Origin: a phage | Length of the DNA stretch: 64,000 nucleotides | Reading direction: 5' to 3' (one strand) | Sequence record: PZ386974.1 | Part shown: positions 2,318 through 41,702 of the stretch, one piece after another | Position numbering within the stretch: the stretch's first letter is position 1 | How the letters are laid out: each line of letters starts with the position of its first letter | Made by a program: the position numbers and the translations under genes | Notes under the pieces: generated by a model | Seen by the model: only the letters and a program-made list of their open reading frames with translations | What the model was told of the DNA's origin: nothing | Databases searched by the model: none

Positions 2318-4006
2318 TTATGAAACAGTCATTACAGTAAATCGTCCAACTTTGCTCATCCGAAGATGTTGTCCATAACGTTGAGGGTCATGGTCTCGAT
2401 GAGAGATAATGAACACATTAGTATTTTGTAAACTTCCAAGAATGGTATCTATAGCCTTAACAGCCTCAGAATCGACAGCCCCGTCAAAAACCTCATCAAG
2501 AATCAGAGTGTTGATTTTAACACCAGAGACCTTTTCAGCAATATCTCTCCATGTAAACAACAATGCGATATCGATACGTGCCTTTTCACCTTGACTAAAT
2601 GAAGCATAACTAAAATCTTCACGACCACGTGATTTTATAGATTCATTGAATTCTTCGTCAATAGAAAACACGTAATCAGCTTCCATGATTTTAAGATAAT
2701 GGTTAATCTGCTTGTTGAACAGAGGCACATATTTTTTAATGATAGCACCTTTAATACCAGAATCTTTTAACATATCTGTGATAATACCACGATGGTATTT
2801 TTCAAGAACGATATCCGATTTTGTTTTAATGATTTTATCAAGTTCTTTTTGAAGCAAAGCTATCTCATCGGCATGGTCGATAAATTCTGCTGAGGCTTGC
2901 TCTATTGCAGCTTTAACTTTCTTAGCTTTATCAATAGTGGCAATCATTGCTTGTTTCTTGGTATGAATATCAGATGCAAGGTCCTGTTTAGTCTTAACAT
3001 TAGCTCTATATTCGTCCACTAGGACACTCAGATTATCTCTGTGACATGTAAGTTGCTCGAATGAGTGATTACATTCGTGAAGCTTATCGGTAATCTTAGA
3101 GACAATAGGATCACCCTGGTGCAACTGTGATGCACAAGTAGGACATGTGCCACCATCATGATACATCTTAATAACTTTGTTGTATGAGTCGATTTTAGAT
3201 TTAATCAAGAATGCTTCTTGTCCTATCTTGTTGAATGCCTCAGTAGGGTCTTCATCAAGAACGATATTAAGTAGTCGCTCATTAGCTTCTTCGATTTCTG
3301 CTTTTAATGAACGAGCTTCTTTGGCTAGGTCGTCATACATATTCTGTAGACGCGCTACATTATCACCAGATAATTTCTTTTGACGTTCGATATTCTCGTT
3401 ATAAATCTTAATTTGTTGGATAACACCATCTTTCTTGGCATCGAGAACTTGTCCCTGGGAATTAAGTTCTCGAACTTGAGACTTATTGATTTTATCCATT
3501 TCGGCGAGTGTGCCGACTTCTAAAAGGTCTTCGACAAGTTTTCTACGAGCAGGGGTGCTAAGAGCCATGAAAGGGGTATACCCTGCCGTCCCAAGCACAA
3601 CGATCTGTTTAAAAGACGCGTATGACATTCCGATGCTACGTTCAAATTCTTCTTGGAAGTCACGACTGCTGGCAGATTCATCGAGACGAACACCGTCAAC
3701 GGAGATTTCGAAAATATTGGGCTTTTGGCCACGTCTAATGAAGTATTTTTTATCATCGAATTCCATCCAAAGCTCAACTAAGAGCTCTTTCTTGTTCGTG
3801 CTATTAATGATTTGTCCTTTCTTAACATCACGAAATGGTTTACCGAAAAGTCCGAAAGTAATGGCTTCTAACATCGTAGATTTACCACCGCCATTTTTAC
3901 CAGTGATTAATGTCTTTTGGACTTTATCTAATTGGATATCAATAGGATTCCCACCTACCGACATGATGTTTTGATAACGAACACGATTTAATTTAAATGA
4001 TTTCAT
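2318..4006 (-). CDS. 46: Recombination endonuclease subunit gp46 (Rad50/SbcC-like ATPase)
   Basis: 562 aa; N-terminal P-loop GKNGGGKST, long coiled-coil, CxxC hook-like motif (GGTCPTCAS), C-terminal LILDEVFD Walker B; T4 gp46 size. Confidence 0.92.
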   Translation of the reverse strand: MKSFKLNRVRYQNIMSVGGNPIDIQLDKVQKTLITGKNGGGKSTMLEAITFGLFGKPFRDVKKGQIINSTNKKELLVELWMEFDDKKYFIRRGQKPNIFEISVDGVRLDESASSRDFQEEFERSIGMSYASFKQIVVLGTAGYTPFMALSTPARRKLVEDLLEVGTLAEMDKINKSQVRELNSQGQVLDAKKDGVIQQIKIYNENIERQKKLSGDNVARLQNMYDDLAKEARSLKAEIEEANERLLNIVLDEDPTEAFNKIGQEAFLIKSKIDSYNKVIKMYHDGGTCPTCASQLHQGDPIVSKITDKLHECNHSFEQLTCHRDNLSVLVDEYRANVKTKQDLASDIHTKKQAMIATIDKAKKVKAAIEQASAEFIDHADEIALLQKELDKIIKTKSDIVLEKYHRGIITDMLKDSGIKGAIIKKYVPLFNKQINHYLKIMEADYVFSIDEEFNESIKSRGREDFSYASFSQGEKARIDIALLFTWRDIAEKVSGVKINTLILDEVFDGAVDSEAVKAIDTILGSLQNTNVFIISHRDHDPQRYGQHLRMSKVGRFTVMTVS

Positions 4007-4251: not shown

Positions 4252-4486
4252 CCTCAATACACGCTTCAGCCATTTTAAGAATAGAGCCAGGAGTATCGTT
4301 GTCCATTATATTAAAGCTAAATTCAATAGCCCAGTCGGTGCAGACATGAACTGCTTTAACTTCATTGCCTTCAACGCGTAATGGCTCAATCCAATACTTG
4401 ATAGTGTTCTCGAATCCATCATCATCTTTAACGTCAATTTCAACTTCAAGGTTGAGTCCAGCATTGTTAAATTCATCTAAAGTCAT
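4229..4486 (-). CDS. Hypothetical protein (46.2 position)
   Basis: 85 aa acidic ORF with ATG start, overlaps neighbours. Confidence 0.5.
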   Translation of the reverse strand: MTLDEFNNAGLNLEVEIDVKDDDGFENTIKYWIEPLRVEGNEVKAVHVCTDWAIEFSFNIMDNDTPGSILKMAEACIEDAYNDED

Positions 4487-25823: not shown

Positions 25824-26362
25824 TCTTTTATTTCCAGTAGTTTATTTGATTTAAGGTAATTAGCCTTTTCTAGGACTTCAGAAGCATATTTATTTCCAGC
25901 ACTTGTCTTCCATCCCGCATTATATGAGGATATAGCTTTTCTTATATCCCCGTTATGTATATTTAACCAATAAGAAAATTCGATATAAGCCCATCTGGCT
26001 GAATTAGACCGCTTAGATAGCATTTTCTTAATTTGGGCATCAGTCATATTATAACCAAGCTGGTTAATTCGTGCCCTCATTGTTGGTAGATAATTTTGGA
26101 ACATTCCATACGCATGGTGACCTTTCTTATCTTTAAGATTAATACCAGCAGATGATTCCTGCCATAGTATTGCGGCCATTATGTATCCAAGTCCTTTCTT
26201 ATGCATATTTTCATGCGTTTTAAATTTTCCATCCTTAGAAAACTGTTCCCCAAACTGATAAGCATAATTCAAGTTATCGAGTTGGACATTACTAAAAGTA
26301 TGCTCGGAGCTATGTGCTGATAACGAAAGAGCAAATAGACCAGCGAGTAGTGCTTTTCTCAT
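25820..26362 (-). CDS. Putative secreted lytic transglycosylase (SLT-like domain)
   Basis: Signal peptide MRKALLAGLFALSLSA; WQESSAG...YGMFQ...SYNAG resembles SLT catalytic motifs. Confidence 0.5.
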   Translation of the reverse strand: MRKALLAGLFALSLSAHSSEHTFSNVQLDNLNYAYQFGEQFSKDGKFKTHENMHKKGLGYIMAAILWQESSAGINLKDKKGHHAYGMFQNYLPTMRARINQLGYNMTDAQIKKMLSKRSNSARWAYIEFSYWLNIHNGDIRKAISSYNAGWKTSAGNKYASEVLEKANYLKSNKLLEIKE

Positions 26363-26370
26363 GTTTACCT

Positions 26371-26829
26371 CTAGATTTTAATCACTGCTTTAGAAGCTTT
26401 TCCTGGTAGTCGTTTACTGTTAATAATAGCCATTCTACATTGAAGAGTCTTCATTTTGAATGCCGGATTTTCGCGACAAACTGTAAGTCCTAACCAAAGA
26501 TTTCCATCAGTTATTTCTAAACGGCCTGGGCGGTACTCGACACCTTCGACAAAATCTTCATCAACATCCGGACGTGCCGGCATTGATAAAAATTCTGCAA
26601 CTTCTTTAACGTGATTTTTTACTTTATGAAATAATTCAAAAACGTAATTCTCATCTATTTCTCTCTGGATGGCACGATCTAAGAGATGTTGAGAATACTT
26701 GATATGAAAGCCTGGTAGTCCAAGAGACTTTGCAGCATCTTTTATACCGGCATTTATTTTGCGGAACTCCGTTTCAAAGATTCGACGGAGTTTATTACGG
26801 CGGATAAAAACTTCCGAATTGATAGTCAT
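26371..26829 (-). CDS. regB: Endoribonuclease RegB
   Basis: Track ORF 26371..26853; ATG at 26829 gives MTINSEVFIRRNKLRR...RMAIINSKRLPGKASKAVIK, near-identical to T4 RegB as recalled. Confidence 0.9.
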   Translation of the reverse strand: MTINSEVFIRRNKLRRIFETEFRKINAGIKDAAKSLGLPGFHIKYSQHLLDRAIQREIDENYVFELFHKVKNHVKEVAEFLSMPARPDVDEDFVEGVEYRPGRLEITDGNLWLGLTVCRENPAFKMKTLQCRMAIINSKRLPGKASKAVIKI

Positions 26830-26834
26830 TTTGA

Positions 26835-26885
26835 TTTCTCCTCTAGTTGACAAGTCTATAGTAACACAACTAGAGGAGAAGTAAA
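26835..26885 (-). promoter_or_regulatory. PeSL upstream of regB: GTTTAC -35 and 14 bp inverted repeat TTCTCCTCTAGTTG/CAACTAGAGGAGAA around the -10
   Basis: Right arm contains the GGAG Shine-Dalgarno of regB; coordinates approximate. Confidence 0.5.
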
Positions 26886-27185
26886 CTACTCTTTGAAAGG
26901 AATTAACTTTTTAACTGCTTTAGATACTTCGTCACGAACCTGATGGAAGTTCTTGAGCTGTTCAAGGCGTTGTTCGTAATACGCAATCTCATCTTCTTCA
27001 AGACAATCGTCAGCGTCTTCTTTCAGATATGCCTTGTACTCATTAAAGAGGGCCCATAGGCGGTTCTCAAAGTCATCAAGGCTTTGAATTTTCTTGTGCT
27101 TCGGAACAAGGCCAAAAGGATTGCTTTCAGTTATGCGTCTAGATGCTTCATAATGAGTTCCAAAGCCTGATAGGATTTGAGCCAT
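26886..27185 (-). CDS. Hypothetical protein (T4 vs.x position)
   Basis: 99 aa ORF. Confidence 0.5.
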
Positions 27186-27451
27186 TAGTATTTTTCCTCA
27201 GGTCGAAATACCGCACGACATGCCCACATGCTGGCTTCTTTTAGATGTTGCTTAGCATACTTAAGAGCCTGCACTGCATCCATATCTTCTTTGGTTTGTT
27301 GCTCTGTTTCATTTTCTTTCAAGATATATGCTTCTTCAATCAGAGCATCAAACAACAATCCAAGACGGACTTCTGCATCTTTAATAGCGTTCACTTTACC
27401 GATTTTATCATCGGTATGCGGCTTGTAGCCTTTGATGTCTTCAATCGACAT
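27185..27451 (-). CDS. Hypothetical protein (T4 vs.x position)
   Basis: Track ORF 27185..27619 overlaps the next gene in another frame; internal ATG at 27451 ([10 protein letters not shown]...). Confidence 0.45.
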
Positions 27452-27665
27452 AAGGAATTTCCTCATCGGTGGCAAGGTCATATTCGACCAATTGGATAGG
27501 CTCATTAATACCATATCCACGTACAGTGATATCAGTTGTCGGATAGTTTCCAGTAATATCACCCATTCTAAATGCTTCAGTGAATGATTGCTCGCCTGAG
27601 CAACTAAACCAGGCGGCAAAACATTTTAAAACATCTTCAGACCCTTCTATAATCAATTTAGCCAT
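27441..27665 (-). CDS. Hypothetical acidic protein
   Basis: 74 aa ORF, ATG start. Confidence 0.5.
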   Translation of the reverse strand: MAKLIIEGSEDVLKCFAAWFSCSGEQSFTEAFRMGDITGNYPTTDITVRGYGINEPIQLVEYDLATDEEIPYVD

Positions 27666-28027
27666 TATAGACTCTCAGTAAAGGTGCGAGCGATAACGTC
27701 ACGCTGCTGTTCCGGAGTCAGAGAGTTAAAGCGAACTGCATAACCGGATACACGGATGGTCAACTGCGGATATTTTTCTGGATGCTTAACTGCATCTTCC
27801 AGAGTTTCACGACGCAGAACATTAACGTTCAGGTGTTGACCACCTTCAATTTTAACTTTAGGTTGTTGTTCAATTTCAATTTCACGGGCATTCAAACCGT
27901 AGAAAATTTCCGGGTCTACAATAGCGTCTTCTTTAAAAGTCTTAGAGACAATAATCCTGGCTTGAGTACCGTCTTCAAAATAAATAGTGCCTTTGTGTGT
28001 GCCTTCAAGAATTTGATATGCTTTCAT
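27665..28027 (-). CDS. Autonomous glycyl-radical cofactor (GrcA/YfiD-like; T4 Y06I-type)
   Basis: C-terminal ...[59 protein letters not shown] with the RVSGY glycyl-radical motif. Confidence 0.85.
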
Positions 28028-28033
28028 ATAACC

Positions 28034-28342
28034 TCAATTAGAAAATAAATTTATCCAAGTTTTTTCTTTAATCAAAAATGGGTCGGAATTAAACGCCATT
28101 AAACTTTGAGTGATTAATCCCTTAAATGGCCCATCAATAAATTCCATTTTGAAATGTGGAATACTAGTCATTAACCGTGCATTAGGAGCAGTACAAAAAA
28201 CCTGCTGCCCTGCGAACGGACCTTTAGTCAAACGGTATCGTTTAGGTTTAAAATGGTAAATCTCGTAATTTTCTACAAGGGCCCTTTTATTGCATACTGG
28301 GCTGTTATAACAATGCTCAAAAACTTCAATAGTGGTCATCAT
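28034..28342 (-). CDS. Hypothetical protein
   Basis: Track ORF 28034..28405; ATG at 28342 overlaps the upstream stop (ATGA coupling). Confidence 0.45.
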   Translation of the reverse strand: MMTTIEVFEHCYNSPVCNKRALVENYEIYHFKPKRYRLTKGPFAGQQVFCTAPNARLMTSIPHFKMEFIDGPFKGLITQSLMAFNSDPFLIKEKTWINLFSN

Positions 28343-28878
28343 TGCATTCCAATCACAAAAAATTGAGGACGAGCAATACCACCGATGCAATATTTGCTTT
28401 TGCAACAGTGTTGGACTGTTTTAATATGGATGTCGTAAATCTTATCCATATCAGGAGCTTTAATAGGCTCGTCAATTATGTACAGAATACGAGAAAGCGT
28501 TAATCCACGGAATTTATGTCCTTCATTACCAATAAAACTACGGACAGAATCAGTAAATAAACGGAATCGAATATCATCGCTAGAATATCGAGAAAATTCT
28601 TTTTCAATGTTGCCGGCAGAAATTTTAGCGTAAGCTGAAGTATTAGAAAGAACAATAACTGTTCCGCCATCATACAACCAATTAGCAGCAAAATTAGTCA
28701 CAGCAATTGATTTACCGGATTGTCTGCCGCCGTCTAAACGAAGTGTACAGTACTGCTTGAGTACGTCTTCAAATGGTGGGGCATAACCGTTCTTACAAAT
28801 TTCTTCTACTCTAGCATCAGAATGGTGTGTAAAAGCATTCATCAGGGATAGATAAGGTCCGGTTAAAAATGTTCTCAT
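28339..28878 (-). CDS. Hypothetical P-loop protein
   Basis: 179 aa; GGRQSGKS Walker A-like and LYIIDEP Walker B-like motifs. Confidence 0.5.
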   Translation of the reverse strand: MRTFLTGPYLSLMNAFTHHSDARVEEICKNGYAPPFEDVLKQYCTLRLDGGRQSGKSIAVTNFAANWLYDGGTVIVLSNTSAYAKISAGNIEKEFSRYSSDDIRFRLFTDSVRSFIGNEGHKFRGLTLSRILYIIDEPIKAPDMDKIYDIHIKTVQHCCKSKYCIGGIARPQFFVIGMQ

Positions 28879-29051
28879 TTAGTTTCTCTTAAGGTTGGGG
28901 CCGTTCCGTGGCACATGTTAGGTCCTTCGACTCGCTATGTAAACCCATTACCGCACTTGGGCTCGACCTTATTACAGGTTGGAAAAGGTACATCACTCAG
29001 AGGACTCGACGTTCATGAGGAGAGGTTGCGTTTCCCTTTATTAGGCAAGAA
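28879..29051. other. GC-rich non-coding island with repeated (G)CTCGAC motifs
   Basis: About 170 nt with no convincing ORF, visibly more GC-rich than flanking DNA; motifs gggctcgacc, ggactcgacg, tcgactcgc. Confidence 0.4.
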
Positions 29052-29381
29052 TTATACTCTAGGCTTTTGAGCTTGTTTGGTATTGGATTCCCATGCAGCT
29101 TTGGTAATTTTGTTAGCGGCATAACCAAAGGCATTAGATAGAACACCTTTAGAGTTGAATACATCCAATCCAATAAGTACACCGGCTGTGTTAAATTTAG
29201 GAGCAAAGTACGCATTAGTTTTAGAAAGAGCTTTTTTCAATTCAGGGTCTTGAACCAAACCATCAAAAACGCCTTTACTATTTACTTTATATGTTACTTT
29301 GGGATTTTTACCTTCTTCGATAGCAGCTTTCTGTTCCGCAGATAATGTAACTTCAGTGATAAACTCTTGATACGTTTTCAT
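29052..29381 (-). CDS. Internal-protein-like protein with capsid targeting sequence (MKTYQEFITE)
   Basis: N-terminal decapeptide matches the T4 IP capsid-targeting consensus MKTYQEFIAE; 109 aa, basic. Confidence 0.6.
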   Translation of the reverse strand: MKTYQEFITEVTLSAEQKAAIEEGKNPKVTYKVNSKGVFDGLVQDPELKKALSKTNAYFAPKFNTAGVLIGLDVFNSKGVLSNAFGYAANKITKAAWESNTKQAQKPRV

Positions 29382-29406
29382 TTTGTTCCTATTGTTTTAA
29401 TTTATG

Positions 29407-29721
29407 TTATTCTTTAGGGAAGTTTTTAGAGTATGCATCATAAAGTTTATTACCGATGCGACGGAAGACTTTAGCTGCAAAACGGTTTTCAGGGTTTTTA
29501 ATCATGATTTGCATCATGTAAGTTCCTGCATCCGAAAGAGCTTCTTCATAGTACCCATTAATTTCTTTAAGGGTCCTACGTTTACCACCAGGACCATCAA
29601 CAGTAATTTTCCATTTACCTGTAGAAGTGCGGCTCGGTGGCTCAACTTGTTCAATCCAAATATAACCACCTTCAACGCGTTGGTTGGCGGATTCTGCAAT
29701 AAATTCTTTATACGTTTTCAT
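29407..29721 (-). CDS. Internal-protein-like protein with capsid targeting sequence (MKTYKEFIAE)
   Basis: N-terminal CTS; 104 aa. Confidence 0.6.
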   Translation of the reverse strand: MKTYKEFIAESANQRVEGGYIWIEQVEPPSRTSTGKWKITVDGPGGKRRTLKEINGYYEEALSDAGTYMMQIMIKNPENRFAAKVFRRIGNKLYDAYSKNFPKE

Positions 29722-29785
29722 TTTTTGTTTCCTTGTTTGTTTTGATAGAGTAATTATACCATATTAATACTTAAGCGTAAACAAT

Positions 29786-30046
29786 TTAAGCTTTACCGCC
29801 AGAAATAATTCCGAAGTTGTTAAAATCGTATCCAATATCGTCAACATCTACTTTAGGGCTTGCTACAACATAAGCAATTTCACTACGTTTTGCATAGGTG
29901 TTGATTTCTTTACCATCGCCACCTAAGAAAGAATACCCATTACGCTTTAATGAGCCAAAGTCTTCCGCATCACCAATGAAAGCTTTAACTTTAAATTTAG
30001 GACCTTTGGCATCTGCTTCAATGATAAATTCTTGATACATTTTCAT
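29786..30046 (-). CDS. Internal-protein-like protein with capsid targeting sequence (MKMYQEFIIE)
   Basis: N-terminal CTS variant; 86 aa. Confidence 0.55.
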   Translation of the reverse strand: MKMYQEFIIEADAKGPKFKVKAFIGDAEDFGSLKRNGYSFLGGDGKEINTYAKRSEIAYVVASPKVDVDDIGYDFNNFGIISGGKA

Positions 30047-30052
30047 TTTTCC

Positions 30053-30466
30053 TTAGTAAATTGATTTACCATAGTATTTGTACCAAGTCGGACGTTGAGC
30101 AATTTTTTCATCTAAGCGTGCTTGACTTATCGCAATGGACGCTTCGGACGGGACGTAATTATTACGAAATTCGGCAGGGATGTCGGAAATATCCTGGACA
30201 GTCGTGTCCTTGATTTTGAAACCACGTTTCAAGCATTCAGCGATTAGCTCGATTTGTCGTAAACGTAAAAATTCGAGTTTGTCGTAAAAGAATGTTACGT
30301 GACCTGTGCCTAAGATAAATGTTGGAGAGATTTTAAAATCCTTTACACGTTTACCGTTTTGAACATGTTTACGGACTGCACCAAATACGCGTGGTAATTC
30401 ACGATACTCAGCCATAAGATGTTGGTCGGCCAGTTCAGAAACAAGCGTTAAATTGATACGGGTCAT
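30053..30466 (-). CDS. denV: Endonuclease V (pyrimidine dimer DNA glycosylase) DenV
   Basis: Track ORF 30053..30478; ATG at 30466 gives 138 aa [34 protein letters not shown]..., near-identical to T4 DenV as recalled. Confidence 0.93.
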
Positions 30467-30469
30467 AAT

Positions 30470-30525
30470 TTCCTCCAAGTAGTTGATGAATGTATAGTAT
30501 CAAAGTCCTTGGAGGAAGTAAACAC
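30470..30525 (-). promoter_or_regulatory. PeSL upstream of denV (TCCTCCAAG/CTTGGAGGA arms, GTTTAC -35)
   Basis: Plus strand cctccaagtagttgatgaatgtatagtatcaaagtccttggaggaagtaaac; coordinates approximate. Confidence 0.45.
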
Positions 30526-30806
30526 TATTTTTCTGAAGCGCCTGAAATATATTTTTCAAGACGTTGTTTCATTAGCGAGCCGTTCTTAGCGATTTCTTCT
30601 GGTTTATCGCACATACGCAACAGTGCTTCAAGCTTAACGATATCACTGGTGCGCTCAAATTTGCGAGTATCTATCTTACTAGCAAGTTCAGAAATACGTG
30701 CTAATAGACTTTCAGCTTCAACCAAAGCTGCACCTAGCTTAGTTGCAAATGTGTCGGTAGCTTCGTTAAGAATAGATTCTGATAAAAATTCACTATATGT
30801 TTTCAT
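30525..30806 (-). CDS. Internal-protein-like protein with capsid targeting sequence ([10 protein letters not shown])
   Basis: Track ORF 30525..30821; ATG at 30806; sits between e and denV, the T4 ipII/ipIII position. Confidence 0.6.
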
Positions 30807-31291
30807 ATATACGCTTTCCAAGTTCCTGTTTTAAATGTTGAGATTACGCGTTTCGCGCGATTAGGTGTCTGACGATACCATTTAGATTGGGCTAGATTTA
30901 CTGCCGCTTCGTCCCAACGTTTCTGTTGAAGCATACGAAGAGAATTAGTAAAACCGGCGACGCCTGCTACACCCATTTGGAAGACCATATTGACCAACGC
31001 ACATCGACGAACCGCATCTAAAGAATCATACACCGGTTTAAGTTTAGCATTACCCAAGATTCCGCGAACGGCTTTATCAACGTCTTCATTAAATAGCTTT
31101 TCAGCCTCATCAAGGGTAATTGTACCGTTGCATTTACGACCGATCATTCTGTCAAGTTCAGCTTTAGCTACGGCTAAAGACGGGTTCTTTGTTACTAAAT
31201 GGCCTATGCCAATCGTCCAAAAGCCTTCAGTGTCTTTGTATAAAGTCAGTCTAAGACCTTCGTCATTACGAAGCATTTCAAATATATTCAT
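30803..31291 (-). CDS. e: Lysozyme (endolysin) e
   Basis: Track ORF 30803..31303; ATG at 31291 gives [32 protein letters not shown]..., matching T4 lysozyme as recalled (catalytic E11, D20, T26 context). Confidence 0.95.
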
Positions 31292-31319
31292 AATACCTCC
31301 CACGTTTATAGGAGGTATT
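31292..31319 (-). promoter_or_regulatory. Hairpin sequestering the gene e Shine-Dalgarno, with a late-promoter-like TATAAAC in the loop
   Basis: AATACCTCC-tataaacgtg-GGAGGTATT directly before the ATG on the minus strand; same architecture as T4 gene e. Confidence 0.55.
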
Positions 31320-31325
31320 TATTAC

Positions 31326-31784
31326 TTATAGGAGTGTAGTGAGCACCTTATATAATGATTTGCCCATTACATATTCCCATTGAGAAGGTTTAATTAAAGC
31401 GAATGCATCAAATTCAGGAATCTGTCGTCCGTCTGGGAATGTATGATAGGAATTACAAACACTGTTTCTGAATTGCTCGTGCTCTACAGGGATGGTATAT
31501 AGGAACAGATGAATATTCTTATTGTCTGAGTAATGATGTTCACCTAGGTCTTTCAGGAAGGCAGGGTCATATTGTGTAAACCCAGTTTCTTCTTCGCATT
31601 CACGAATAGCGGCTTCAATAGGAGATTCACCAGGCTCGACACGTCCTTTAGGAATATCCCACCGATGAGCTAAAGAACCTTTAGGACGAGAACCAGTTAC
31701 ACGCCCCATGAATAATTCTTTATCTTCGGTAAGGAAAATAATACCGGCTGATAGTTCTTTCACTTTATTTTTCTTACTCATCAT
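31326..31784 (-). CDS. nudE: Nudix hydrolase NudE
   Basis: Nudix box GRVEPGESPIEAAIRECEEETGF; 152 aa; immediately upstream of e as in T4. Confidence 0.85.
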   Translation of the reverse strand: MMSKKNKVKELSAGIIFLTEDKELFMGRVTGSRPKGSLAHRWDIPKGRVEPGESPIEAAIRECEEETGFTQYDPAFLKDLGEHHYSDNKNIHLFLYTIPVEHEQFRNSVCNSYHTFPDGRQIPEFDAFALIKPSQWEYVMGKSLYKVLTTLL

Positions 31785-32025
31785 CTCGGTCCCATGATTT
31801 GGCCATTAATTCGGACATAAATTCTTCAATGCGCGTTTCTTTAGATGGACTTTCACTATTAGAGACCGCAAGTTTGTAATCTGCAATAGGACAGAACATA
31901 TCAAGGTCCATATTAAGGTCGTCTTTGATTTTTTCTTCTGACACATCTTTATCGTATGTGTACAGATAACTATCACATGATTCTGATTTAATGTAAATTG
32001 CTATACTCATCTCAAATTCCTGCAT
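31774..32025 (-). CDS. Hypothetical acidic protein
   Basis: 83 aa ORF. Confidence 0.45.
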   Translation of the reverse strand: MQEFEMSIAIYIKSESCDSYLYTYDKDVSEEKIKDDLNMDLDMFCPIADYKLAVSNSESPSKETRIEEFMSELMAKSWDRDDE

Positions 32026-32498
32026 TCGGTAATAAAACGTTCAACTTCGTTATTCTTGGCTTTTATCTTGTCTTTATGTTCTTGTAAACTACTTTTAATA
32101 AGATTAATAATGATGGCGGCGGTACCTCCACCAATTATACCGCCAATTATACTTACGATACTAGATGCTAATAAGATAGCAATAATATCAACAAAACCGA
32201 AAGAACTCACCTTAGTACTGAAAAACCATATAGACGGTACAAATATAATCCATCCTGTTATCCATTGACACTTATTGAAAAACTTTTCAAGCTCAGCTTG
32301 AGTTGTTCGTATTACTTCATCGATAGGTTGATATCCATTAATGTATCTGTTCACGATAATACCTGCTGGCTGGTCGATTTTAAATTCTTGGCAAATACGT
32401 TTAACTAAGTAGGATGGACATCCTGTCCAATCTACTGAATAGTATGAAATACCTTTATTGCCGTCGTCTATATTAGACCAATATGTTTTGTTAATCAT
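32007..32498 (-). CDS. Hypothetical membrane protein (Gly-zipper TM helices)
   Basis: 163 aa; hydrophobic segments including IIGGIIGGGTAAIIINLI. Confidence 0.5.
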   Translation of the reverse strand: MINKTYWSNIDDGNKGISYYSVDWTGCPSYLVKRICQEFKIDQPAGIIVNRYINGYQPIDEVIRTTQAELEKFFNKCQWITGWIIFVPSIWFFSTKVSSFGFVDIIAILLASSIVSIIGGIIGGGTAAIIINLIKSSLQEHKDKIKAKNNEVERFITECRNLR

Positions 32499-33184
32499 TA
32501 CCAGCCTTCCATAGGGAATTCCAGATAAACTTGAGCATTGACACGAATTTCATTGGTAATCTTTTTAACTCGGTCTGTATTACGAGATACACGTCCGAAC
32601 CAACGCCATCCATTACTAATTGCACGAGAACCAGTGTGCCATGTTTGCCAATCAAACTGAAGAAGAGTACGGTCTGGAGCTTCCCATTTCTCTAGTTCAC
32701 CTTTTTCAATTTTTTCGAGGACTTCTTTGTGCCACTGGCGATAGATAAGTTCGCCATCAGGAATCTGACTGAACTCTGCAGTTCCTGTTGCAAAATGAGT
32801 AGGACACACATCAGCGTTAACAAGACCAAGAATATGTTCAGACAAATAGCGAGGATTGTCATAATCAGGTTGTCCTGCAGTAATAAAATGTTGTCCTGTT
32901 GGAATATCCGGGCGTGGTACGTCATCATGGTGATAACCAGGAATAGCAGGATACCAACCAGGCATCAGCATATGGACTCGTGAATCAAATACTACATCCG
33001 AGTCTTTCCAATCGTCAGGAAGATTTTGGATAAAGCTACGAGTAATTGGACCGCCGTTATCAAAAGCAAAATTCAAATCGCAATTAAAGAACATAGGCTC
33101 GTTTTTAATCTGGTCATTTTTAATCGCATGAGCAAAACCACCTACTGCACGAGCTTGACTATTAAACACTTTAGAACTATTCAT
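32498..33184 (-). CDS. Hypothetical protein
   Basis: 228 aa ORF; His/Asp-rich central region; no fold assigned. Confidence 0.5.
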   Translation of the reverse strand: MNSSKVFNSQARAVGGFAHAIKNDQIKNEPMFFNCDLNFAFDNGGPITRSFIQNLPDDWKDSDVVFDSRVHMLMPGWYPAIPGYHHDDVPRPDIPTGQHFITAGQPDYDNPRYLSEHILGLVNADVCPTHFATGTAEFSQIPDGELIYRQWHKEVLEKIEKGELEKWEAPDRTLLQFDWQTWHTGSRAISNGWRWFGRVSRNTDRVKKITNEIRVNAQVYLEFPMEGW

Positions 33185-38537: not shown

Positions 38538-39002
38538 TTATTTAATTTGTTTAGCAGACCAGATACGGTCTTTAATAAGTTTTTGGATATCTTCAACATA
38601 CTCAAGGCTATGAGCGTGAGGATTATCTTTGAAGCTATGTGCTCGTGCCAGTTTCTGGCCTTCTGTTTTGATTACTAAAAGCTCTTTAAGAATTGCTTCA
38701 TACTTAGAAATAATTCCTTTGGCGATATTTTTTTCTTGAGCGGCTTTAGGGTCCGCTTTTGGTGCAGGTGCTTTACCTGTAGCTTTCTGGAACAATTCAC
38801 CTGATGCAGCTAGGCTTTTAAAAACTCGGCTAACAGTATTAGCATTAGTAAAACCTTCGGCTTTAAAATCTCTAATAAAACGGAAACGTTCTTCATCAGA
38901 GGCGTCTTTGTAAGAATATTTACCTGCTTGAATTGCTGCAATCGCAGCGGCTTTTACATCTGAACTAGATTGTTCAGTCAAAAATTCAGCGTATGATTTC
39001 AT
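38538..39002 (-). CDS. Internal-protein-like protein with capsid targeting sequence (MKSYAEFLTE)
   Basis: 154 aa, Lys/Ala-rich; N-terminal CTS-like decapeptide. Confidence 0.55.
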   Translation of the reverse strand: MKSYAEFLTEQSSSDVKAAAIAAIQAGKYSYKDASDEERFRFIRDFKAEGFTNANTVSRVFKSLAASGELFQKATGKAPAPKADPKAAQEKNIAKGIISKYEAILKELLVIKTEGQKLARAHSFKDNPHAHSLEYVEDIQKLIKDRIWSAKQIK

Positions 39003-41369: not shown

Positions 41370-41415
41370 TTTGATAGGACTACTATAACATAGTCCTATC
41401 AGCATGTAAACTACT
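41370..41415 (-). promoter_or_regulatory. PeSL: GTTTAC -35, inverted repeat GATAGGACTA/TAGTCCTATC with -10 TATAGT in the loop
   Basis: Plus strand gttttgataggactactataacatagtcctatcagcatgtaaac; same arms as the 23151 copy. Confidence 0.5.
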
Positions 41416-41702
41416 TATAGAAGAGTTTTTGCAATAATTTTAAGCTGAGCTACAGAAATATGCTTAGCTTTAAACAGTGCAGTCTCTTCAGCCGGAGAGA
41501 TAACAATAGTAGCGCCATCTTTCTTAGCAGACCATCCATCCCCTAAATAAACAGTACCTTTTACTTCTTCGCCGTCAACCAGACTAATCATTGGTTTACC
41601 CTCGCGTCCTTTATTTGCTTTAATAACTTCGGAAGTAAGGGTTGCTTCGGTCAGAGTAGAAACGTTAGCAACAGGTGATATAAATTCTTTATAGGTTTTC
41701 AT
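41415..41702 (-). CDS. ipI: Internal protein I (IPI), capsid-injected anti-restriction protein
   Basis: 95 aa; MKTYKEFI... CTS and ...GREGKPMISLVDGEEVKGTVYLGDGWSAKKDGATIVISPAEETALFKAKHIS... near-identical to T4 IPI as recalled. Confidence 0.9.
   Translation of the reverse strand: MKTYKEFISPVANVSTLTEATLTSEVIKANKGREGKPMISLVDGEEVKGTVYLGDGWSAKKDGATIVISPAEETALFKAKHISVAQLKIIAKTLL

What the first reader, a model, noticed from the sequence alone, without database searches (positions are those of the whole stretch)
29052..30046. Tandem cluster of three capsid-targeting-sequence internal-protein-like genes upstream of denV
Three consecutive small ORFs begin with MKTYQEFITE, MKTYKEFIAE and MKMYQEFIIE, the decapeptide that in T4 targets IPI/IPII/IPIII into the prohead and is removed by the gp21 protease after the Glu. 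The three bodies are unrelated to one another. In T4 the known IPs are packaged, injected with the DNA, and at least IPI acts as an anti-restriction factor; the IP loci are known to be hypervariable among T-even phages. This cluster is therefore a strong candidate set of injected, early-acting anti-defence effectors of unknown specificity.
Basis: partly seen in the sequence, partly recalled or inferred. Interest (0 to 1): 0.75.

Follow-up and report, generated by a model that had tools for sequence, protein, structure and literature searches.

The report
T-even phage internal-protein gene array
These are three small genes of an RB69-like T4-type phage that carry the known ten-residue tag for packing proteins into the phage head, so they are ordinary members of the known, highly variable "internal protein" family of injected anti-restriction candidates; their targets are still unknown.

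Summary
Three minus-strand ORFs (29381..29052, 29721..29407, 30046..29786) start with MKTYQEFITE, MKTYKEFIAE and MKMYQEFIIE. This strict motif occurs 5 times in the window and 0 times in shuffles.

The window is a Mosigvirus (RB69-like) genome. The genes lie in the classical e–denV–vs.8 internal-protein (IP) locus, transcriptionally downstream of denV, not upstream.
- The middle gene is Ip10, named in phage Pol in 1994.
- The denV-proximal gene is RB69 ORF125c, already annotated "internal head protein".
- The third is RB69 ORF123c, annotated only "hypothetical".

With the tag removed, the bodies show no similarity to each other, to T4 IPI/II/III, to Pfam or to PDB.

T4 Ip1, Ip2 and Ip3 each inhibit a different GmrSD type IV restriction enzyme. 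Ip4-10 were tested against a GmrSD panel without a reproducible hit. Packaging, cleavage and targets remain untested for these three.

One side finding may be more novel. The "gap" after the array (about 29039..28893) is a conserved structured RNA candidate. It has an invariant 30-nt core closed by covarying helices, is shared with rV5-like and ~47-kb phages, and has no Rfam match.

The parts
29052..29381 (-). ipA: 109-aa gene with the capsid-targeting tag (MKTYQEFITE|VTLSAE...). Equals RB69 ORF123c. Predicted mature form 99 aa, pI 9.7.
   Evidence: 100% identical to RB69ORF123c, annotated 'hypothetical'. PHROG 3966, unknown function. Found in 91 phage records, including ~33%-identical Dhakavirus homologs that also carry the tag. 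AF2 pLDDT 78.6; no significant fold match.
29407..29721 (-). ipB = Ip10: 104-aa tagged gene (MKTYKEFIAE|SANQRV...). Predicted mature form 94 aa, pI 9.6.
   Evidence: 96.8% identical to PP01 'Ip10 internal head protein', 72% to VR7 ip10. GenBank notes cite phage Pol Ip10, CAA84455. RB69 ORF124c is a C-terminally frameshifted allele. AF2 model unusable, pLDDT 47.9.
29786..30046 (-). ipC: 86-aa tagged gene (MKMYQEFIIE|ADAKGP...). Equals RB69 ORF125c 'internal head protein'. Predicted mature form 76 aa, pI 6.4. Starts 6 nt after the denV stop.
   Evidence: RB69p125 annotation. PHROG 2667, E 7e-21. Found in 218 phage records. An exhaustive HMMER search found only 6 hits. JS09 carries an in-frame internally deleted allele.
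29753..29781 (-). T4-early-type sigma-70 promoter-like site (TTTACG-N17-TATAAT with TG) between ipC and ipB.
   Evidence: 10 of 12 matches, the best in the region. The same GTTTAC...TAtaaT arrangement precedes T4 ipII and ipIII and the VR7, WG01 and CGG4-1 IP genes. This is a consensus match only.
30053..30466 (-). denV (endonuclease V), a conserved gene embedded in the IP array.
   Evidence: Pfam PF03013 E 7e-14, PHROG 1183 E 2e-62. 414 nt, as in APCEc01 and RB69.
30525..30806 (-). ipD: fourth tagged gene of the same locus (93 aa, [10 protein letters not shown]). Its ATG overlaps the stop codon of lysozyme gene e (ATGA).
   Evidence: PHROG 3499 internal head protein, E 1e-46. RB69p127 'internal head protein'.
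28893..29039 (-). Conserved structured-RNA candidate that bounds the array on its 3' side, directly before vs.8 (the invariant core includes 28978..28948). Function unknown. Whether it belongs to the IP system is not established.
   Evidence: see full report.
38538..39002 (-). ipE: 154-aa tagged gene (MKSYAEFLTE) in the second hyperplastic region.
   Evidence: RB69 ORF149c at the equivalent place also starts MKTYAEFLTE.
41415..41702 (-). IPI homolog (95 aa, 19-residue propeptide MKTYKEFISPVANVSTLTE|A).
   Evidence: Residues 20-95 match PDB 2JUB 'Internal protein I' residues 1-76, E 5.8e-42.

Best explanation
The three genes encode internal proteins (IPs) of an RB69-like T-even phage.

**Proposed mechanism**
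1. Each protein is made with the 10-residue capsid-targeting sequence (CTS) MK(T/M)Y(Q/K)EFIxE. This tag binds it to the scaffolding core of the assembling prohead.
2. The prohead protease gp21 cuts after Glu10 (I-x-E|). The free mature proteins are 99, 94 and 76 residues long and stay among the packaged DNA.
3. They are ejected into the host together with the DNA.
4. There, each most likely binds and blocks one specific host nuclease that attacks sugar-modified hydroxymethylcytosine DNA. The most probable target class is a GmrSD-family type IV restriction enzyme that accepts the arabinosyl-hmC DNA of this genus.

The genes behave as exchangeable cassettes in the e-denV-vs.8 hotspot. Related phages carry different sets and orders, including decayed alleles.

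**What is shown and what is inferred**
- Shown here: the motif, the locus, the identity with named or annotated IPs, the unrelated bodies, and the cassette polymorphism.
- Taken from T4 literature: targeting, cleavage and injection.
- Inferred by analogy with T4 Ip1-3: anti-restriction function and target class.

**Sub-confidences**
- CTS-targeted virion proteins: about 0.9.
- Anti-defence role: about 0.6.
- GmrSD-type target: about 0.4.
For: **Motif**
- The CTS sits at the exact N-terminus of all three, with the residues reported as critical: Y4 and F7 for targeting, I8 and E10 for processing (PMC9026906).
- The motif count is 5, against 0 in shuffles.

**Locus and identity**
- The locus is the T4 ipIII-ipII-denV locus.
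- ipB is Ip10.
- ipC is annotated as an internal head protein.
- ipA's Dhakavirus homologs, only 33-38% identical, keep the CTS.
- A ~43%-identical ipC relative keeps a CTS-like N-terminus, MQTFHEFLVE.

**Bodies**
- No body resembles another IP, Pfam, PADLOC or PDB.

**Cassette behaviour**
- VR7 has denV-ip10-ipC-like-ip7.
- JS09 has a deleted ipC, then ip10, then ipII.
- PP01 has ip10-ipIV and no denV.
- RB69 has a frameshifted ip10.

**Literature**
- T4 Ip1, Ip2 and Ip3 each inhibit a distinct GmrSD (PMC12373910).
- IPIII is needed on ECOR17 and acts in the cytoplasm without its CTS (PMC9391042).
- RB69 DNA is ara-hmC and is restricted by GmrSD enzymes (PMC6024577).
Against: - I found no virion proteomics or processing data for these proteins or their close homologs.
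- Ip4-10 showed no reproducible inhibition of the GmrSD panel tested. That panel was challenged with T-even phages.
- No perfect late-promoter consensus (TATAAATA) lies near the genes. The only good promoter match is early-type. T4 ipII and ipIII show the same pattern.
- The ipA model resembles no known nuclease inhibitor.
- ipC is deleted or ip10 is truncated in some viable relatives, so any function is conditional.
Confidence: 0.55

Rival explanations
1. The proteins are packaged and injected as proposed, but they act on something other than type IV restriction enzymes. Possible targets are another early-acting defence (abortive infection, a toxin-antitoxin system, a non-GmrSD nuclease) or a host-takeover target.
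For: - Ip4-10, including Ip10, gave no reproducible inhibition of any GmrSD variant tested.
- The bodies have no similarity to Ip1-3.
Against: - All three T4 IPs with known function target the same enzyme family, and the hotspot logic predicts the same for their neighbours.
- The negative panel used T-even phages with glucosylated DNA and only 8 active systems, so it is weak evidence.
Confidence: 0.25
2. The proteins are packaged but have no specific target. They serve as basic counter-ions or DNA-condensing filler inside the head, and their diversity is neutral drift.
For: - Mature ipA and ipB are basic, pI 9.7 and 9.6, with 15-16 Lys+Arg.
- The T4 head review reports that IP lysines contact DNA phosphates.
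- Alleles are lost or truncated in viable relatives.
Against: - Mature ipC (pI 6.4) and ipD (pI 6.3) are not basic.
- Each family is highly conserved within itself: 95-100% identity across dozens of phages, with the CTS retained at 33% identity.
- T4 Ip1-3 all proved to have specific targets.
Confidence: 0.12
3. The proteins are not packaged. They are early cytoplasmic accessory proteins, and the shared 30-nt 5' end persists only as a recombination linker between cassettes.
For: - An early-type promoter lies upstream of ipB, and there is no late-promoter consensus.
- The 30-nt CTS-coding stretches are 83-90% identical direct repeats.
Against: - The conservation is at the amino-acid level, at exactly the residues needed for targeting and cleavage. 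It is kept in homologs whose bodies have diverged to 33-43%.
- T4 ipII and ipIII, which are proven virion proteins, have the same early-type promoter architecture.
Confidence: 0.05

Closest known systems
T4 internal proteins IPI, IPII and IPIII (Ip1-3)
   Same: - Same N-terminal capsid-targeting decapeptide with an I/L-x-E cleavage site.
- Same genomic hotspot (e-ipIII-ipII-denV-vs.8).
- Same small size, and the same early-type promoter architecture.
- The window also carries a true IPI homolog that matches PDB 2JUB.
   Different: - The bodies show no detectable sequence or profile similarity to IPI, IPII or IPIII.
- The host phage has arabinosyl-hmC rather than glucosyl-hmC DNA. This is inferred from the genus.
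- No target is known.
Ip10 of phage Pol (Repoila et al. 1994), annotated in PP01, VR7, SP18 and JS09
   Same: ipB is this protein: 96.8% identical to PP01 Ip10 and 72% to VR7 Ip10.
   Different: Nothing material. Its position in the array differs between phages. The RB69 allele is frameshifted at the C-terminus.
RB69 ORF125c / PHROG 2667 'internal head protein' and RB69 ORF123c / PHROG 3966 'unknown function'
   Same: ipC and ipA are 96-100% identical to these RB69 proteins.
   Different: ORF123c (ipA) is called 'hypothetical' in the records listed, apart from one probable mis-annotation (RNA polymerase ADP-ribosylase, H60), and its PHROG has no function. Recognising it as an internal protein is a small annotation gain.
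Anti-CRISPR and other anti-defence hotspots in phage genomes
   Same: Unrelated small inhibitors sit together in one variable locus and swap between relatives. Silas et al. draw this analogy themselves.
   Different: Here the proteins share a virion-targeting tag and are delivered pre-made with the DNA rather than expressed after entry.

Membership tests
T-even internal proteins (CTS-targeted, gp21-processed, co-injected) | N-terminal capsid-targeting decapeptide MKTYQEFIAE-like, with Tyr4 and Phe7 (targeting) and Ile/Leu8 and Glu10 (processing) | tested here: met
   All three start MK(T/M)Y(Q/K)EFI(T/A/I)E. Residue roles come from Mullaney & Black 1996 as summarised in PMC9026906.
T-even internal proteins (CTS-targeted, gp21-processed, co-injected) | Encoded in one of the two hyperplastic IP loci (e-denV-vs.8, or the ipI locus near 57B and the tRNAs) | tested here: met
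   Gene order is e, ipD, denV, ipC, ipB, ipA, vs.8. The T4 order is e, ipIII, ipII, denV, vs.8.
T-even internal proteins (CTS-targeted, gp21-processed, co-injected) | Bodies unrelated between family members; presence and order vary among close relatives | tested here: met
   hhalign probabilities below 2% for all pairs once the CTS is removed. Locus comparison across 11 phages.
T-even internal proteins (CTS-targeted, gp21-processed, co-injected) | Cleaved by prohead protease gp21 after Glu10 | not testable with these tools
   Only the I-x-E site is visible. By analogy, the IPI homolog's mature start (residue 20) coincides with PDB 2JUB residue 1.
T-even internal proteins (CTS-targeted, gp21-processed, co-injected) | Present in virions and injected with the DNA | not testable with these tools
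   No virion proteomics for these proteins found in the paper library.
GmrSD (type IV restriction) inhibitors, as T4 Ip1-3 | Neutralises a specific GmrSD-family nuclease | not testable with these tools
   Literature only. Ip1-3 are specific inhibitors. ip4-10 gave no reproducible hit on the panel.
IPI* fold / IPII / IPIII sequence families | Sequence or profile similarity of the mature body | tested here: not met
Ip10 family (for ipB only) | Full-length sequence identity with annotated Ip10 | tested here: met
   96.8% to PP01 ip10, 72% to VR7 ip10, P0004 'Ip10 [Shigella phage SP18]' 71%.
PeSL (promoter-early stem-loop) shuffling elements (considered for the flanking RNA element) | Short early-promoter-plus-stem-loop unit repeated many times per genome in hyperplastic regions | tested here: not met
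   Only one copy in 64 kb, even with 3 mismatches or an HMM. The element is ~150 nt with a 30-nt invariant core. PeSL definition from PMC4122927.
Any Rfam 15 family (considered for the flanking RNA element) | Covariance-model match | tested here: not met
   No match at E<=1 in window 26000-33000. No match at the element in six loci from other phage groups.

The most novel reading that the evidence does not exclude
The IP array is one half of a mixed protein-and-RNA anti-defence island.

The conserved structured RNA that directly follows the array has an invariant 30-nt core closed by covarying helices. It is single-copy and is shared with unrelated rV5-like and ~47-kb virulent coliphages, where it heads the tRNA operon. 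It is absent from 5,426 E. coli genomes and has no Rfam match.

On this reading, the RNA is a new class of phage small RNA that binds a conserved host factor, for example as a decoy for a host nuclease. At the same time it would serve as the homology anchor through which IP cassettes are exchanged. Klebsiella phages with two copies flanking an ipII-like gene fit this.

Separately, ipA, ipB and ipC would be the inhibitors that let arabinosyl-hmC phages escape type IV enzymes specific for that modification.
Probability: 0.12. Interest if true: 0.75.

Novelty: new member of a known kind. Interest (0 to 1): 0.3.

Why it matters
For the genes themselves the gain is modest. The class, the locus and two of the three proteins are already described, and the hypothesis that every Ip-locus protein is a specific anti-restriction factor was published in 2025.

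Practical value:
- It flags RB69 ORF123c (ipA) as an unrecognised internal protein.
- It lists six tagged proteins of one arabinosyl-hmC phage as defined candidates to pair with type IV restriction enzymes that attack that modification. Such enzymes are a determinant of host range for therapeutic Mosigvirus phages.

The adjacent conserved RNA could matter more. It would be an undescribed structured RNA family common to three groups of virulent enterobacterial phages, including T4 itself. In T4 it is currently annotated as the first 40 codons of vs.8.

Tried and rejected
**On the three proteins**
- PHROG 3966 holds both ipA and ipB at full length, which suggested they are remote homologs. I rejected this. 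BLASTP similarity is confined to the tag, and hhalign of the tag-less families gives 0.1% probability.
- Perfect late-promoter consensus TATAAATA: 6 in the window, 8 expected by chance, none near the genes.
- The ipB AlphaFold model had pLDDT 47.9, so it was not used for fold search.
- The word-indexed 5.8-billion-protein search returned almost only near-identical proteins.
- Pfam, PADLOC and PDB sequence searches gave nothing above noise.
- ipC has a weak hit to a 417-aa WG/KWG-repeat protein (E 1.4e-4). I judged it motif-level only.
- I found no virion proteomics for these proteins.

**On the 173-nt gap after ipA**
- I first suspected a denV remnant, because JS09 has a denV fragment there. 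tblastn with three denV sequences found nothing.
- It does not match T4 rnaC or rnaD or Rfam. It is not a repeated PeSL, and it is absent from E. coli genomes.
- The whole gap does not fold more stably than shuffles (z +2.3). RNAalifold on a MAFFT alignment gave only a weak consensus. The structure became clear only with a fixed-register comparison.

**Papers not available**
- The T4 genome review (PMC150520) and Repoila 1994 (PMC395341) are not held in the library.

Full report
**1. Observation**

The ORF list and the sequence show three consecutive minus-strand ORFs.

| Label | Coordinates | Length | N-terminus |
|---|---|---|---|
| ipA | 29381..29052 | 109 aa | MKTYQEFITE |
| ipB | 29721..29407 | 104 aa | MKTYKEFIAE |
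| ipC | 30046..29786 | 86 aa | MKMYQEFIIE |

Each has an AGGA-type ribosome-binding site.

A six-frame scan for MK[TMS]Y.EF[IL].E finds five matches in the 64-kb window, all at ORF starts. The mean in 200 shuffles is 0.0. The other two matches are:
- a 93-aa gene between lysozyme e and denV (30806..30525, [10 protein letters not shown]), whose ATG overlaps the e stop codon;
- a 154-aa gene at 39002..38538.

A sixth tagged gene is an IPI homolog with the longer 19-residue propeptide (41702..41415). Its residues 20-95 match PDB 2JUB, 'Internal protein I', at E 5.8e-42.

However, the genes are read on the minus strand, so the trio lies downstream of denV (30466..30053).

**2. What the window is**

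The 2.1-kb region is 98% identical to Mosigvirus phages (SSE1, a20, APCEc01, mar005P1). 68 records hold at least 80% of it, and 914 records hold some part.

In RB69 the same genes are:
- ORF123c, hypothetical;
- ORF124c, hypothetical;
- ORF125c, 'internal head protein';
- ORF127c, 'internal head protein'.

Flanking genes are e, nudE, denV and vs.8-vs.1, regB. This is the T4 e-ipIII-ipII-denV-vs.8 locus.

**3. Identity of each protein**

*ipB is Ip10.*
- It is 96.8% identical to 'Ip10 internal head protein' of the Tequatrovirus PP01, 72% to VR7 ip10 and 71% to SP18 Ip10.
- GenBank notes trace the name to phage Pol, CAA84455.
- It occurs in 190 phage records from Mosig-, Tequatro-, Gapriver- and Karamvirus, down to 48% identity.
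- RB69 ORF124c is the same gene with a frameshifted C-terminus.

*ipC.*
- It hits PHROG 2667, internal head protein, E 7e-21, and occurs in 218 records.
- An exhaustive HMMER scan of 1.84 billion representatives found only six hits. One is a 99-aa, 43%-identical relative starting MQTFHEFLVE. Another is a weak motif-level match to a WG-repeat protein.

*ipA.*
- It occurs in 91 records. Most are nearly identical. Thirteen are ~33% identical, mostly Dhakavirus, and the homologs examined (119 aa) keep the tag.
- Apart from one ~32%-identical record labelled 'RNA polymerase ADP-ribosylase' (H60, probably an annotation error), it is called 'hypothetical' in the records listed, and PHROG 3966 has no function.

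*What the bodies resemble.*
- Nothing in Pfam, PADLOC or PDB resembles any body.
- With the tag removed, profile-profile comparison of ipA, ipB, ipC, ipD, ipE, T4 IPII, IPIII and IpIV gives probabilities below 2% for every pair. The shared PHROG of ipA and ipB is therefore an artefact of the tag.
- The ipB model was unusable.
- Predicted mature forms are 99, 94 and 76 residues with pI 9.7, 9.6 and 6.4.

**4. Cassette behaviour**

Gene orders between e and vs.8:

| Phage | Order between e and vs.8 |
|---|---|
| T4 | ipIII, ipII, denV |
| PP01 | ip10, ipIV (no denV) |
| Window / APCEc01 | ipD, denV, ipC, ip10, ipA |
| RB69 | As the window, with ip10 truncated |
| JS09 (same genus) | ipD, denV, internally deleted ipC (tag kept), ip10, ipII, a denV fragment |
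| VR7 | denV, ip10, ipC-like, ip7 |
| WG01 | 132-aa tagged gene, ipIII-like, denV, ipA-like, 85-aa tagged gene |
| CC31 | 96-aa tagged gene, denV, ip10-like |
| CGG4-1 | 86-aa tagged gene, denV, ip4-like, ipC-like |

This is the polymorphism first described by Repoila et al. 1994 and discussed by Comeau et al. 2014.

The 30-nt tag-coding stretches of the three genes are 83-90% identical direct repeats.

A T4-early-type promoter (TTTACG-N17-TATAAT, 10 of 12 matches) precedes ipB. The same GTTTAC...TAtaaT architecture precedes T4 ipII and ipIII and IP genes in VR7, WG01 and CGG4-1. No perfect late-promoter consensus lies nearby.

**5. Mechanism**

From the T4 literature:
- The first 10 residues of IPIII suffice for head incorporation.
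- Residues 4 and 7 govern targeting; residues 8 and 10 govern cleavage.
- About 1000 IP molecules are packed with the DNA and injected.
- IPI* blocks GmrSD.
- IPIII is required on ECOR17 and works in the cytoplasm without its tag.
- Ip2 and Ip3 each block a different GmrSD system with no cross-protection. The authors propose that all proteins of the two Ip loci target GmrSD variants.

RB69 has arabinosyl-hmC DNA and is restricted by GmrSD enzymes, including UTI89 GmrSD.

My best explanation is therefore that ipA, ipB and ipC are tag-targeted, gp21-processed, co-injected proteins. Each probably inhibits one modification-dependent nuclease.

The weak points:
- I found no proteomics for these proteins.
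- ip4-10 showed no reproducible inhibition of the GmrSD panel.

Rivals are a non-GmrSD target, a purely charge-neutralising role, or no packaging at all. They are weighed in their own sections of this report.

**6. Novelty of the finding**

The class, the locus, Ip10 and the ORF125c annotation are known. Recognising ORF123c as an internal protein is a small addition. A specialist would not be surprised, so I score interest at 0.3.

**7. Side finding: a conserved structured RNA candidate after the array**

*Conservation.*
- The 173 nt between the ipA stop and the vs.8 start are conserved at 80-90% nucleotide identity across six Tevenvirinae genera. Indels are not multiples of three.
- In T4 this stretch is annotated as the first 40 codons of vs.8. 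In the window, an in-frame TAA directly precedes the conserved MRTFLTG start.

*Distribution.*
- blastn finds it in 1037 phage records.
- Its 30-40-nt core is 92-100% identical in unrelated phages: rV5-like Vequintavirus (EdH4) and the 45-kb phage Ivi.
- Pattern scans of IMG/VR and of metagenomes each returned 27 loci. These fall in the same three groups: ~166-kb T4-like, ~130-140-kb rV5-like and ~47-kb phages.

*Evidence for structure.*
- The core ACCUGUAAyAAGGUCGAGCCmAAGyGCGGU is essentially invariant.
- It is closed by a helix whose three inner pairs show AU/UA/UG/GC, CG/GC/UA and CG/GC.
- On an ungapped 19-sequence alignment, the covariation score is 0.245, against 0.092 +/- 0.019 in shuffles (0 of 500 shuffles reach it). 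With slid partners it is at most 0.065.
- A second stem has its 3' strand at a fixed register, positions -9 to -5. There, 8 of 11 distinct 5-mers have an exact complement upstream. The shuffled control averages 1.6, and 0 of 2000 shuffles reach 8.

*Copy number and context.*
- It is single-copy in the window.
- It is absent from 5,426 E. coli genomes and matches no Rfam family.
- In the rV5-like phages (EdH4, L030) and in the ~47-kb phages L031, L033 and L034 it lies 200-550 nt upstream of the tRNA-Arg(UCU)/Met(CAU) operon on the same strand. No tRNA was found near it in Ivi or L039.
- Klebsiella T4-like phages have two copies flanking an ipII-like gene.

*Interpretation.* I did not determine its function. 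Candidates are a small stable RNA, a UTR or processing element, or a homology anchor for cassette exchange.

Noticed in passing
window 28893-29039 (minus strand; the invariant core includes 28948-28978): Conserved structured-RNA candidate between the IP array and vs.8. It has a 30-nt invariant core closed by two covarying helices. It is present in 1037 phage records, including unrelated rV5-like and ~47-kb phages; in most of those examined it heads the tRNA operon. It has no Rfam match and is absent from E. coli genomes.
   Followed up: partly
L007 (T4 NC_000866) 2308-2413, i.e. T4 64,807-64,912: The annotated T4 vs.8 CDS (660 nt) starts 40 codons upstream of the start conserved in other phages (MRTFLTG). 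That extension is the conserved RNA element. In the window an in-frame TAA precedes the conserved ATG, so the T4 start is probably over-extended.
   Followed up: partly
   Followed up: yes
window 29753-29781 (minus strand); L007 upstream of ipII and ipIII: A T4-early-type promoter (GTTTAC-N17-TATAAT) precedes ipB. T4 ipII and ipIII have the same promoter type embedded in a palindrome (ctagaattgtga...tcacaattctag), resembling the published PeSL elements. No late-promoter consensus lies near any of these IP genes.
   Followed up: partly
L011 (JS09) 3462-3572 and 4328-4465: JS09 is in the same genus. It carries an in-frame internal deletion of ipC that keeps the tag (MYQEFIIEAEAKGPK|VDVDD...). 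It has an IpII homolog in place of ipA, and a 45-codon duplicate fragment of the denV 5' end before vs.8. These look like footprints of recombination with a Pol/T4-type locus.
   Followed up: partly
L002 (RB69) 3348-3620: RB69 ORF124c is Ip10 with a frameshifted, shortened C-terminus (90 aa against 104 aa). The reference phage may therefore carry a defective allele.
   Followed up: no
L014 (Klebsiella phage K65_evo1) 2500-2655 and 3040-3150: Two copies of the RNA element, one of the 'window type' and one of the 'T4 type', flank an ipII-like gene. This suggests that cassette exchange used the element as a crossover point.
   Followed up: partly
window 27665-28027 (minus strand): vs.6 encodes a homolog of the autonomous glycyl-radical cofactor GrcA/YfiD (C-terminal RVSGYAVRF motif). 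This is known for T4 and annotated in RB69.
   Followed up: no
P0012 (417 aa): The N-terminal half of mature ipC (KVKAFIGDAEDFG...NGYSFLGGDGKEI) weakly resembles the repeat unit of a WG/KWG-repeat protein (E 1.4e-4, four matched stretches). This is probably a shared beta-hairpin motif rather than homology.
   Followed up: no
window 28339-28878 (minus strand): vs.8 (179 aa, PHROG 1488 unknown function) gives weak sub-threshold hits to P-loop/terminase N-terminal ATPase families (Pfam E 0.05-0.3; PHROG 2 terminase large subunit E 2e-4).
   Followed up: no
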